A program made the position numbers. Positions 27,501 to 30,500 of a stretch of DNA of 64,000 nt are shown here, one piece after another. The stretch lies in NCBI RefSeq assembly GCF_056712565.1, contig NZ_CM160072.1. One strand, 5' to 3'. Each line of letters starts with the position of its first letter. Position 1 is the first letter of the stretch.

Positions 27501-30500
27501 ATGCAGCACGGTTCCCGTCAGGTTGATCACCGGACGCAGCGCGCTTTGCGCCTCTTTCGTCAACCGGGCATCGACTTCTTGCGCCCAGTTTTCACACCAC
27601 GCGGGCAGCGTCTGGCTGTCACGAATCACTTCTCGCGCTTCGTCAAGCATCTGACGCAGCAATTCCACCACGCGGGTGTGACCATAAGTATCACGCAAAG
27701 AAAGGAAGGAGCTATCGCGCAATAAGCGATCAATAGCCGGAAGTTGACTATAGAGGGAACGCGTTTCGGTTGTCATAGGAAACCTGGCTGATCAAGGCCC
27801 TCTCACACGGAGAAGGGCGTTTAACATAACCACGGATTGTAACGTGAGATGGGTCAGGAGGACATATCGCGCATCAAGCCTTTGGCGGTTCGGTGCGAGC
27901 AAAACTTTCGCGGCTAAACAGGTTTTCGACCAGTTTGACTAAGTGTGGGCGGTCGACACACCAGCCTGGCGCAACGCGGCGGAAATTGAGATATCCGACG
28001 GCACAGGCAATGGCGATAGTCGCCAGATTGACCGTATCGGTTTTGAGTGTGCCATCGACCAGATATCCTTCCAGCACATCCAGACTGCGGTTGATTTTCT
28101 CACGCTGACGTAACAATTCATCTTCAGACTGCTGCGCCGCCGGACGCGCCTGTTCACGCACCGATACCAGCCCGGCATCCATAATGCCATCCGCCAGCGC
28201 CTCAATTTTGCGCACCCGCAACGACTCCAGCGGATCACGCGGCAACATCGCCGGAGCAACATTCATTAATTCAATATATTCAGCGATGATCGGCGAATCA
28301 AACCAGCATTCGCCCTCTTCGGTCACCAGCACCGGCACTTTTCCTAACGGGTTAAATTGCGCCACGCCGTTATCCGCGTTATAGGGCAGTTCATTAATAA
28401 ATTCGAACGTTATGCCCTTTTCTAACAACAGAATAGAAAGTTTGCGTACAAACGGGCTGGTGTAGCTACCGACGAGTTTCATGCCGAGTCCTTTGTGCGA
28501 GGAAAAATATCAGTATGGCTCAGGCTCGCGCAAAACACAGGTGATACAAGTCTCAATGATCCAAATAAAGATAATGCATCCAACTGGTCATTCTTAGCAG
28601 CACTTTCCGCATCACCGAAACATGGCTGAAATGGTCGGAGTAAACTGCCACCTGGGCGTAGATGCCGTCGGGTAAGGCATCGATATCAGCGTTAGGGTCC
28701 AGTTCAATGGTTCCCAGCACACCGTCCGTGCCGGGCACGACCGTTAATGATTGCAATACCCCCTGCGCCTGATAAGAACCGCCTGGCACGACAGGTAAAA
28801 TACTGGTCAGTTTGCCGTGAAACACCTGCCCAGGTAGCGCGTTAAACACCACTTCCGCATCATCGCCGGGTTTCAGACGTAACAGCGAGTTTTGCCGAAA
28901 TTGGGCGACAATTTGCCGTTTTTGCTCGGGGATGAAGACCATCACCGGACGCAGCGGCAAGGCAGCTGCGTATGTACCTGGGCGGATCAGTACCTGAGTG
29001 ACGTAGCCATTGCTCGGTGCGCGAATGACAGTCTGCTCAAGGTTATATTTTGCTTCAGTAAGTTGCGCTCTTAAGCTCACAATCTGCGATTGCTCGCCGT
29101 TAACCATACTGTCGAGCTGGCTCTGGATCTGCGCCTGCTCCGCCACCGAGCCTTTCACCAGCGCATCCTGCGCGAGGAAATTTTGCCGCGCATCGTCGAT
29201 GTCACGTTCCGAGAACGGATTCACCGCCGCCTGGCTGCCTTTCAGATAACGTTGATAATTTTTAAACAGACGGTCGCGCTCCGCTGAAACCTGGGTGGTG
29301 TTGGCCTGCGCTTCAGTGAGCTGCGCGCGCAGCGTCTTTATATTATGCGTCGCCGTCATCAGGTCTGCCTGAAGCCTGTCAACTCGCGCCTGGTAACGAA
29401 CCGGGTCGAGCTTAAAAAGCACCTCGCCCTTCTGAATAAGCTGATTATTTTTGTCGGTGACTTCAGTAACAATTCCCGTCACCTGTAGCGTGATGGGGAT
29501 CGCTATCACTGCCTTTTGCGCGGTAAAAGTGTAAGGGTGGTTGTAGTTCATCAACAAAATCAAACCACTCACCAGAAACACGCCTCCCAGCGCCGCCGTC
29601 GCCAGCGTCCACTGATTCACCGGAATGCGGAAGATTTTAAAGACCGCCCACGCCAGCGCCACGTAAGTTAAAACAATCAATAGATCCATAATTAGATCTC
29701 CGGAAACGTGGAATAGTCAGTCTTTTTCTCGGCGGCGAGTTGGTGCTCCAGCGGGAAATCCGGTCAGAAAGTGCGGCGATTTCCGCGTCAGTCGTTTTCT
29801 CTTGCGGCGTAACATGCGACTGCATGCCCCAGCCGCGCTCCGGTTGATAGAGCGTCGCCCAGATCCACAGGAACGGCCAGATAACATGCAGGGTAAACAG
29901 GCTTACCCAGCCCGCCGTATGAATAGCGTCGGCATGGGGATGGTTGCGCTTTTTGGCAATCAGATAAGGGATGTCATGTATCGCGATGATTCCATAAAAA
30001 ATCACCAGAAAGACGAAGATCAGCACTCCCAACGCGAAATAGTTTAGAAACATATCTGCCTCGGATTCACGTTTATCAGTGTTGTTTTTTGGCTGGCAGC
30101 CAGAAGGGAGTCAGGCTGATATTTTGACAATAATCCGGGTTCGCGATTCTCGCCATAACACCAAAGAATAATTTAAGAGGTGATGAGTTGCTTAGTTACA
30201 TAACGATTTTATGACGAAGGCATAACATGCTGTAGATCACATCAGGTGAACGCCGTAAGAAAATATCTTGTGATTCAGATCACAAAGATTCAACAAACCA
30301 TCAAAATAAAAATGTGACATAACTCACATTTAAATGCCATTTTTAGCGAAAATCGCCGCCTTGTTGCTTTTTTACACAAGCATTTTGTGATGAACATCAC
30401 GTCAATTACCTCTCTACCCCCTACATTTATGTGACTGATATCACACAAAAGGCCGCCGACTGGACAGTTAACCGATTCAGTGCCAGATTTCGCAGTATCT

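What the first reader, a model, noticed from the sequence alone, without database searches (positions are those of the whole stretch)
30269..30445. Four consensus-like CRP palindromes stacked upstream of mtlA
Sites TGTGATTCAGATCACA, TGTGACATAACTCACA, TGTGATGAACATCACG and TGTGACTGATATCACA occur at spacings of 44, 73 and 44 bp. This is an unusually dense array, consistent with the known multi-CRP control of the mannitol operon. It is not novel but is clearly visible and explains the large 5' regulatory region.
Basis: partly seen in the sequence, partly recalled or inferred. Interest (0 to 1): 0.2.

Follow-up and report, generated by a model that had tools for sequence, protein, structure and literature searches.

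The report
Known CRP site array of mtlA
The four CRP-binding palindromes are real and lie exactly where stated, but they are four of the five long-known CRP sites of the E. coli mannitol operon, so this is a correct re-observation of textbook regulation and not a discovery.

Summary
TGTGA-N6-TCACA sites lie at 30269-84, 30313-28, 30386-401 and 30430-45, with centres 44, 73 and 44 bp apart. They are the only matches with one mismatch or fewer in the 64-kb window, and such a cluster is expected about 4e-8 times per window by chance.

The locus is the E. coli yibI-mtlA intergenic region, upstream of mtlA-mtlD-mtlR. Published mapping gives five CRP sites at -262.5, -219.5, -175.5, -102.5 and -58.5, spaced 43/44/73/44 bp. 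The weak CRP1 (30226-41, 7 of 10 core bases) was missed.

A 2026 NAR paper shows what the 44-bp spacing does. MtlR has no DNA-binding domain and docks onto two CRP dimers 43-46 bp apart to repress transcription. A Cra operator lies in the -35/-10 spacer.

My own cross-species survey found the same layout. All 16 Enterobacterales species sampled keep 44-73-44 (one has 74), while spacer sequence drifts freely. In the sample, 22 of 24 near-perfect CRP pairs 44 bp apart lie beside mtlA.

Verdict: already known, low interest.

The parts
30226..30241 (.). CRP1, a weak site (CATGCTGTAGATCACA). It has 7 of 10 core bases and a perfect right half only. Its centre is 30233.5 (-262.5), 43 bp upstream of CRP2.
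   Evidence: Found by the graded scan. The 7-of-10 count and the 43-bp distance match the paper, which reports the site as unoccupied in EMSA and dispensable in vivo. A comparable half-site is present in 9 of 17 species. An IS21-family insertion separates it from CRP2 in E. coli GPEC1054.
30269..30284 (.). CRP2 (TGTGATTCAGATCACA). It has 10 of 10 core bases and its centre is 30276.5 (-219.5).
   Evidence: Reported as essential for mtl expression. Conserved in 17 of 17 species.
30313..30328 (.). CRP3 (TGTGACATAACTCACA). It has 10 of 10 core bases and its centre is 30320.5 (-175.5). It lies 44 bp from CRP2 and forms the CRP2/CRP3 docking pair for MtlR.
   Evidence: The N6 centre differs from K-12 (ATAACT against ACTACT) but the core is intact. 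Mutating the site gave a slight reduction in expression.
30386..30401 (.). CRP4 (TGTGATGAACATCACG). It has 9 of 10 core bases and its centre is 30393.5 (-102.5). It lies 73 bp (6.95 helical turns) from CRP3.
   Evidence: Reported as essential. The 73-bp gap is kept in 15 of 16 Enterobacterales, with 74 bp in Brenneria.
30430..30445 (.). CRP5 (TGTGACTGATATCACA). It has 10 of 10 core bases and its centre is 30437.5 (-58.5). It is the promoter-proximal, Class-I-like activator site and forms the CRP4/CRP5 docking pair for MtlR, 44 bp from CRP4.
   Evidence: Reported as essential. Its centre lies 44.5-46.5 bp upstream of the -10 hexamer in all 16 Enterobacterales.
30461..30466 (+). The -35 hexamer TGGACA, matching 5 of 6 consensus bases.
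   Evidence: The position follows from CRP5 at -58.5. It is conserved as CTGGACAG in all 13 species with the E. coli-type promoter and invariant among the E. coli alleles compared.
30468..30481 (-). Cra (FruR) operator, ACTGAATCGGTTAA on the minus strand, a full match to RSTGAAWCSNTHHW. It fills the -35/-10 spacer.
   Evidence: One search gave 3 matches in 64 kb against 0.39 expected. ChIP-exo and expression data show Cra repression overriding CRP at mtlA (PMC5888115).
30481..30489 (+). Extended -10 element, TGc + CAGATT. The hexamer matches only 3 of 6 consensus bases, which fits an activator-dependent promoter.
   Evidence: Read from the sequence. A TGn + hexamer is conserved in all Enterobacterales compared, as TGnTAGAGT in Serratia, Yersinia, Brenneria and Acerihabitans. 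The simple promoter scan misses it because it requires at least 4 of 6 matches.
30496..30588 (+). Inferred transcription start (+1 at about 30496, within 2 nt or so) and the 93-nt 5' UTR of mtlA.
   Evidence: Calculated from the published CRP5 position of -58.5, which rests on an S1-mapped start site. The start is 7 nt after the -10 hexamer. The UTR has no Rfam match and contains conserved small hairpins.
30589..32502 (+). mtlA, the mannitol PTS EIICBA gene (637 aa). It is the regulated gene, and its IIB domain sequesters MtlR.
   Evidence: PTS_EIIC, PTS_IIB and PTS_EIIA_2 domains.
32821..33969 (+). mtlD, mannitol-1-phosphate 5-dehydrogenase (382 aa).
33969..34556 (+). mtlR, the repressor without a DNA-binding domain (195 aa, Pfam MtlR). 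It docks on CRP pairs spaced 43-46 bp apart.
   Evidence: PF05068, E = 2.4e-66. The mechanism comes from PMC13421365.

Best explanation
This is the operator-promoter of the E. coli mtlADR (mannitol) operon, a Class III CRP-dependent sigma-70 promoter.

**Activation.** CRP5 at -58.5 most likely contacts RNA polymerase in a Class-I-like way. CRP2 and CRP4 are also required and CRP3 contributes, probably as an architectural nucleoprotein scaffold.

[quoted passage not shown] An MtlR dimer, which has no DNA-binding domain, can then bridge them and repress transcription.

[quoted passage not shown] Dephospho-HPr competes for MtlR and restores repression when glucose is present. A Cra operator in the -35/-10 spacer adds a second, CRP-overriding repression.

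**What is shown here:** the sites, their spacing, their non-randomness, their evolutionary conservation, the promoter and Cra motifs, and the presence of intact mtlA, mtlD and mtlR.

**What is taken from the literature:** CRP occupancy, the requirement for individual sites, MtlR docking and its release.

**What is inferred:** the exact start site in this strain, and how the upstream sites activate.
For: - **Sites and statistics:**
- **Locus identity:**
- **Agreement with published mapping:** spacings of 43/44/73/44 bp and core-match counts of 7/10 for CRP1 and 10/10 for CRP2 and CRP3 both match.
- **Published function:** EMSA shows MtlR supershifts only with two CRP sites 43-46 bp apart. Chromosomal mutations of CRP2, CRP4 or CRP5 abolish expression and growth on mannitol.
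- **CRP binding:** genomic SELEX ranks this spacer second among CRP-selected clones.
- **Cra:** consensus match in the promoter spacer and ChIP-exo.
- **Cross-species layout:** all 16 Enterobacterales species sampled keep the four-site layout, 15 as 44-73-44 and one as 44-74-44, including the pair the scan did not select for.
- **Sequence against length:** core bases carry 1.86 bits, N6 centres 0.61 bits and spacers 0.71-0.85 bits. The CRP5-to-ATG distance varies from 144.5 to 171.5 bp.
- **Specificity of 44 bp:** in a sample of 120 loci from bacterial genomes, 22 of 24 near-perfect CRP pairs 44 bp apart are next to mtlA, and no pair at any other spacing is.
- **Promoter geometry:** CRP5 lies a constant 44.5-46.5 bp from the -10 hexamer across families.
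- **Within E. coli:** four divergent alleles carry 8-11 substitutions each and none falls in the 50 core positions. All 13 full-length hits sampled show no net length change.
Against: - Nothing contradicts the identification.
- The MtlR-docking model does not explain why the 73-bp CRP3-CRP4 gap is as invariant as the 44-bp gaps, because MtlR does not bind the CRP3/4 pair.
- CRP5 at -58.5 is 3 bp from the canonical Class I position of -61.5. The start site rests on old S1 mapping and was not re-measured here.
It cannot show how often the array is lost.
- No binding experiment exists for this particular (B2-type) allele. Its N6 centres in CRP3, CRP4 and CRP5 differ from K-12.
Confidence: 0.95

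Rival explanations
1. The sites are only redundant, additive CRP activator sites (a local CRP sink), and the 44/73/44 spacing is incidental with no function of its own.
For: Multi-site CRP promoters exist with other spacings, for example malK at 34 bp and the ygcW-yqcE spacer at 57 bp. Spacer sequences are unconstrained.
Against: The spacings are invariant in 16 of 16 Enterobacterales species (one with 74 instead of 73) although the spacer sequence has drifted to background. The adjacent CRP5-to-ATG segment does accumulate indels. The published EMSA spacing series (42-47 bp) and the malK 34-to-44 bp conversion show spacing-dependent MtlR binding. The sites are not redundant, because single mutations of CRP2, CRP4 or CRP5 abolish expression.
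Confidence: 0.03
2. The array mainly or also regulates the divergent yibI-yibH operon, whose start codon lies about 170-390 bp from the sites.
For: The array lies in a divergent intergenic region. The SELEX authors note that both yibI and mtlA lie downstream of the CRP-binding sequence. The 172 bp next to yibI are unexplained.
Against: yibI/yibH is the upstream neighbour in only 5 of the 17 species that keep the array. The array keeps a fixed distance to the mtlA -10 element. In E. coli GPEC1054 an IS21-family element separates yibI from CRP2 to CRP5, which stay with mtlA.
Confidence: 0.1
3. The cluster is a chance or compositional artefact of an AT-rich intergenic region, or a degenerate repeat family and not protein-binding sites.
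For: The intergenic region is AT-rich at 58%, and palindromic words are more frequent in such DNA.
Against: With the local base composition only 0.018 sites are expected in the spacer, against 4 observed. The N6 centres and flanks share no sequence, so these are not copies of a repeat. Core bases alone are conserved across families.
Confidence: 0.01

Closest known systems
E. coli K-12 mtlADR operator-promoter (five CRP sites: Ramseier & Saier 1995; MtlR-CRP docking: Lee et al. 2026, PMC13421365)
   Same: It is the same locus, gene order, site positions, spacings (43/44/73/44 bp), core bases, -35, extended -10 and Cra operator. Only 12 of 548 intergenic columns differ.
   Different: The differences are allelic only. 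The N6 centres of CRP3 (ATAACT against ACTACT), CRP4 (TGAACA against TGAACG) and CRP5 (CTGATA against TTGATA) differ, as do a few spacer bases. The window is 100% identical to ATCC 11775, NU14 and APEC O18 over this spacer.
CytR-CRP repression complexes (deoP2, cdd, udp and others)
   Same: A repressor is held on DNA by protein-protein contacts with two tandem CRP dimers, turning the activator into a platform for repression. The spacing of the CRP sites matters (paper discussion).
   Different: CytR is a LacI-family protein with its own DNA-binding domain and binds DNA between the CRP sites. MtlR (PF05068) has no DNA-binding domain and needs 43-46 bp centre-to-centre spacing.
Class I CRP-dependent promoters (lac type, CRP at -61.5)
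   Same: The promoter-proximal CRP5 is upstream of a weak promoter and probably recruits RNA polymerase.
   Different: The centre is at -58.5 and not -61.5. Activation also needs far-upstream sites at -102.5 and -219.5, which makes this a Class III promoter.
malE-malK multi-CRP nucleoprotein region
   Same: Several CRP sites are stacked in a divergent sugar-transport control region.
   Different: The 34-bp spacing does not recruit MtlR unless it is lengthened to 44 bp.
Mlc-EIIGlc membrane sequestration
   Same: Induction works by sequestering the repressor on the dephosphorylated PTS transporter.
   Different: Mlc binds DNA directly. This comparison concerns the release step and not the CRP array itself.

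Membership tests
E. coli mtlADR operator (five-site CRP array) | Lies directly upstream of an mtlA-mtlD-mtlR operon | tested here: met
   mtlA is at 30589-32502, mtlD at 32821-33969 and mtlR at 33969-34556. Pfam finds PTS EIIC/IIB/IIA, Mannitol_dh and MtlR domains. RefSeq annotation of an allele identical over the intergenic query agrees.
E. coli mtlADR operator (five-site CRP array) | Five CRP sites with centre-to-centre distances of 43, 44, 73 and 44 bp | tested here: met
   The centres are 30233.5, 30276.5, 30320.5, 30393.5 and 30437.5.
E. coli mtlADR operator (five-site CRP array) | Site quality: CRP1 has 7 of 10 conserved bases, CRP2 and CRP3 have 10 of 10 | tested here: met
   One search gives 3, 0 and 0 mismatches.
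E. coli mtlADR operator (five-site CRP array) | Sequence is orthologous to the K-12 operator | tested here: met
   Only 12 of 548 columns differ. There is no indel within the array and no change in a core base. The region is present in 5404 of 5426 complete E. coli genomes.
E. coli mtlADR operator (five-site CRP array) | cAMP-CRP physically occupies the sites | not testable with these tools
   Literature only: EMSA and genomic SELEX, where this spacer was the second most abundant clone. Nothing has been measured for this allele.
MtlR-CRP-DNA repression module | At least one pair of adjacent CRP sites 43-46 bp apart, centre to centre | tested here: met
   There are three such intervals: CRP1-2 at 43 bp, CRP2-3 at 44 bp and CRP4-5 at 44 bp.
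MtlR-CRP-DNA repression module | An MtlR-family protein (PF05068, no DNA-binding domain) is encoded in the operon | tested here: met
   The 195-aa product matches PF05068 at E = 2.4e-66 and is annotated as MtlR.
MtlR-CRP-DNA repression module | MtlR forms a ternary complex with two DNA-bound CRP dimers and represses | not testable with these tools
   Published EMSA, structural modelling and in vivo data for K-12. Indirect support here: the spacing is conserved and the 44-bp class is specific to mtlA.
Cra (FruR) regulon operator | Match to the Cra consensus RSTGAAWCSNTHHW overlapping the core promoter | tested here: met
   ACTGAATCGGTTAA at 30468-30481 on the minus strand.
Class I CRP-dependent promoter | A single CRP site centred near -61.5, -72.5, -82.5 or -92.5 is sufficient for activation | tested here: not met
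   The proximal site is at -58.5 and the upstream sites are also required. It works partly like Class I but is classified as Class III.

The most novel reading that the evidence does not exclude
The array may be more rigidly built than the published MtlR-docking model requires. Three features are not explained by CRP contacts or by MtlR, which does not bind the CRP3/4 pair.

- The 73-bp CRP3-CRP4 gap (6.95 helical turns) is as invariant as the 44-bp gaps across four enterobacterial families.
- Three short spacer motifs are invariant or nearly so in 16 species: AAATA at 30261-65, ACAAA at 30293-97 near the middle of the CRP2-CRP3 spacer, and TG plus a T-tract at 30362-73 upstream of CRP4.
- The promoter-proximal site sits at a conserved but off-canonical -58.5.

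The most novel reading is that the whole CRP2 to CRP5 region forms one phase-locked nucleoprotein scaffold. That scaffold might include a further sequence-specific partner (Fis or an unknown factor) or a fixed intrinsic bend, and both activation and repression would depend on it.
Probability: 0.25. Interest if true: 0.35.

Novelty: already known. Interest (0 to 1): 0.1.

Why it matters
The finding adds no new biology. The mtl control region has been known to hold five CRP sites since 1995, and the function of its unusual 44-bp spacing was published in 2026.

It is still useful as a positive control. A reader with no tools located a real, experimentally mapped regulatory array to the base.

The cross-species check done here adds a small point to the literature, which examined four other species. 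The complete 44-73-44 layout, including the 73-bp gap that the MtlR model does not explain, is fixed across Enterobacteriaceae, Yersiniaceae and Pectobacteriaceae-type genera while the spacer sequence drifts. In the sample, near-perfect CRP pairs 44 bp apart lie almost only beside mtlA.

Tried and rejected
- **RNA elements.** An Rfam scan of 29900-30800 at E <= 1 found nothing, so no known RNA element explains the long control region.
- **Promoter and terminator scan.** It missed the real promoter because the -10 hexamer matches only 3 of 6 bases. It reported a minus-strand promoter-like site at 30595-30568 and a minus-strand terminator-like hairpin at 30467-30453. Both are at chance frequency (1.3 and 0.4 expected) and were dismissed.
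- **Array serving yibI.** Rejected as the main role, because yibI is the neighbour in only 5 of 17 species.
- **The 56-58 bp class.** I asked whether these recurrent CRP pairs in enterobacteria are one orthologous locus that could serve as a second fixed-spacing example. Only E. albertii and Superficieibacter share the ygcW-yqcE locus. The others are unrelated and were not pursued.
- **The two non-mtl pairs at 44 bp.** L017 (Orbaceae) lies upstream of a gene for a histidine-acid-phosphatase-like protein with an RHGxRxP motif. L107 is from an actinobacterium. There is no evidence that they are MtlR targets, and they were left as exceptions.
- **Uniqueness within E. coli.** I could not test the paper's claim that 43-46 bp spacing is unique to mtl within the E. 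coli genome, because the whole genome was not available to scan.
- **Scan limits.** The counts describe a sample, not a census.
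Full report
**1. Observation**

| Site | Coordinates | Mismatches |
|---|---|---|
| TGTGATTCAGATCACA | 30269-84 | 0 |
| TGTGACATAACTCACA | 30313-28 | 0 |
| TGTGATGAACATCACG | 30386-401 | 1 |
| TGTGACTGATATCACA | 30430-45 | 0 |

The centres are 44, 73 and 44 bp apart. These are the only such matches in the 64-kb window.

- Shuffles and Markov simulations give about 1.7-1.8 sites per 64 kb, never more than two within 180 bp in 400 simulations.
- The Poisson expectation for four sites in 180 bp is about 4e-8 per window.
- With the AT-rich local composition only 0.018 sites are expected in the spacer.

**2. Locus**

The 535-bp spacer (30054-30588) lies between yibI on the minus strand and mtlA on the plus strand.

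- It matches this spacer in 5404 of 5426 complete E. coli genomes. It is 100% identical to ATCC 11775, NU14 and APEC O18.
- Downstream are mtlA, mtlD and mtlR, confirmed by RefSeq annotation of the matching ATCC 11775 record and by Pfam.
- Against K-12 MG1655 only 12 of 548 columns differ. None is in a core CRP base, and the only indel lies upstream of the array.

**3. What is known**

Lee et al., NAR 2026 (PMC13421365), building on Ramseier & Saier 1995, describe five CRP sites centred at -262.5, -219.5, -175.5, -102.5 and -58.5, spaced 43/44/73/44 bp.

- My graded scan finds the fifth, CRP1, at 30226-41 (CATGCTGTAGATCACA). It has 7 of 10 core bases and lies 43 bp upstream of CRP2, matching the paper's count.
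- According to the paper, CRP1 is not occupied when CRP2 and CRP3 are present and is dispensable. CRP2, CRP4 and CRP5 are essential, and CRP3 contributes slightly.
- The paper's key result concerns MtlR, which has no DNA-binding domain. It binds only when two CRP dimers sit 43-46 bp apart (optimum 44-45), at CRP1/2, CRP2/3 or CRP4/5 but not at the 73-bp CRP3/4 pair. Lengthening the malK 34-bp interval to 44 bp, or shortening the mtl 73-bp interval to 44 bp, creates binding.
- Induction occurs when dephospho-EII-Mtl sequesters MtlR at the membrane. Dephospho-HPr competes for MtlR.
- Independent genome-wide data agree. The yibI-mtlA spacer was the second most abundant CRP genomic-SELEX clone (PMC3105977). 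ChIP-exo shows Cra acting at mtlA and overriding CRP (PMC5888115).

**4. Promoter anatomy in the window**

- With CRP5 at -58.5, +1 falls at about 30496.
- The -35 is TGGACA (30461-66).
- The 17-bp spacer contains a full match to the Cra consensus (30468-81, minus strand). That consensus has 3 matches in 64 kb against 0.39 expected.
- The -10 is an extended TGcCAGATT (30481-89).
- The 5' UTR is 93 nt.
- The consensus promoter scan misses this activator-dependent promoter.

**5. Independent evolutionary test**

I scanned about 100,000 species genomes for two near-perfect CRP sites 29-59 bp apart.

- **Spacing classes.** The largest class is 44 bp, with 24 pairs. Of these, 22 lie beside mtlA, in 17 species: Escherichia, Citrobacter, Enterobacter, Klebsiella, Superficieibacter, Pseudescherichia, Serratia, Yersinia, Brenneria, Acerihabitans and an Orbaceae. 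No pair at any other spacing is beside mtlA.
- **Full layout.** Mapping all CRP-like sites upstream of each mtlA shows the full 44-73-44 layout in 15 of 16 Enterobacterales and 44-74-44 in Brenneria. This includes the pair the scan did not select for. The Orbaceae operator has a single 44-bp pair.
- **Sequence against length.** In an ungapped stack, core bases carry 1.86 bits, against 0.61 for N6 centres and 0.71-0.85 for spacers. The length of the spacers is conserved but their sequence is not. The neighbouring CRP5-to-ATG segment varies from 144.5 to 171.5 bp.
- **Promoter geometry.** CRP5 lies 44.5-46.5 bp upstream of an extended -10 in all 16 Enterobacterales, even where the core promoter sequence differs.
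- **Within E. coli.** Thirteen full-length hits sampled across 96-100% identity show no net length change. Four divergent alleles carry 8-11 substitutions each, with none in the 50 core positions. Several fall in the N6 centres.

**6. Rivals**

- **Chance or repeat artefact.** Excluded.
- **Purely additive sites with incidental spacing.** Contradicted by the length conservation and by the published spacing experiments.
- **Regulation of yibI as the main role.** Contradicted, because yibI/yibH is the neighbour in only 5 of 17 species that keep the array. In addition, an IS21-family element in E. coli GPEC1054 splits CRP1 and yibI from CRP2 to CRP5, which stay with mtlA. A secondary effect on yibI is not excluded.

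**7. What remains unexplained**

- The 73-bp gap (6.95 turns, so CRP3 and CRP4 are on the same face) is as fixed as the 44-bp gaps, although MtlR does not use it. This fits the paper's speculative idea of a phase-dependent architecture but is not explained by MtlR docking.
- Several non-core columns are invariant or nearly so in 16 species: AAATA at 30261-65, ACAAA at 30293-97, and TG plus a T-tract at 30362-73.
- CRP5 sits at -58.5 and not at the canonical -61.5.

**8. Verdict**

The feature is already known. The array explains only part of the 535-bp spacer. Interest is low.

Noticed in passing
window 29637-30053 (-), deletion at about 29751: yibI carries a 1-bp deletion (CCC to CC) relative to both ATCC 11775 and K-12. 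The frameshift replaces the last 19 residues with 37 others and makes the ORF (138 aa against 120 aa) overlap the yibH start. It could be a real strain mutation or a homopolymer sequencing error.
   Followed up: partly
window 30261-30265, 30293-30297, 30362-30376: Short motifs outside the CRP cores are invariant or nearly so in 16 Enterobacterales species: AAATA just upstream of CRP2, ACAAA near the middle of the CRP2-CRP3 spacer, and TG plus a T-tract and A upstream of CRP4. CRP core contacts and the MtlR model do not explain them. They might be a Fis site, a fixed bend or another factor's site.
   Followed up: partly
window 30496-30588 (mtlA 5' UTR): The UTR has conserved blocks in Enterobacteriaceae. 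One is the hairpin CGGCUACCUCUGCCG. Another is a GGGC...GCCU hairpin whose loop varies between species. A CCUC upstream of the second hairpin can pair with the Shine-Dalgarno GGGG in the alifold consensus. There is no Rfam match. Possible translational control was not examined further.
   Followed up: partly
window 32503-32820 (mtlA-mtlD spacer): This spacer is 318 bp here and in ATCC 11775, against 229 bp in K-12. The likely cause is a difference in REP-type repeat content, which was not examined.
   Followed up: no
L123 (E. coli GPEC1054), junction equivalent to window ~30252/30253: An IS21-family element (istA/istB) is inserted 16 bp upstream of CRP2. It separates CRP1 and yibI from CRP2 to CRP5 and mtlA. 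This is a natural allele consistent with CRP1 being dispensable.
   Followed up: partly
L017:2019-2078 (Orbaceae bacterium ESL0727): The same genome that has a 44-bp pair at mtlA has a second CRP pair 44 bp apart. It lies about 77 bp upstream of a gene for a 419-aa protein with the RHGxRxP histidine-acid-phosphatase motif. This could be chance in an AT-rich genome or a second MtlR-compatible operator.
   Followed up: partly
L026:1801-1873 (E. albertii), L033 (Superficieibacter); E. coli ygcW-yqcE spacer: A near-perfect CRP pair 57 bp apart is conserved in the ygcW-yqcE divergent spacer. Other 56-58 bp pairs in Serratia, Yersinia, Proteus and Brenneria are at unrelated loci.
   Followed up: partly
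window 29212-29225 (-) and 49520-49533 (-): There are two further full matches to the Cra consensus in the window, one inside yibH and one at 49.5 kb. They were not examined.
   Followed up: no
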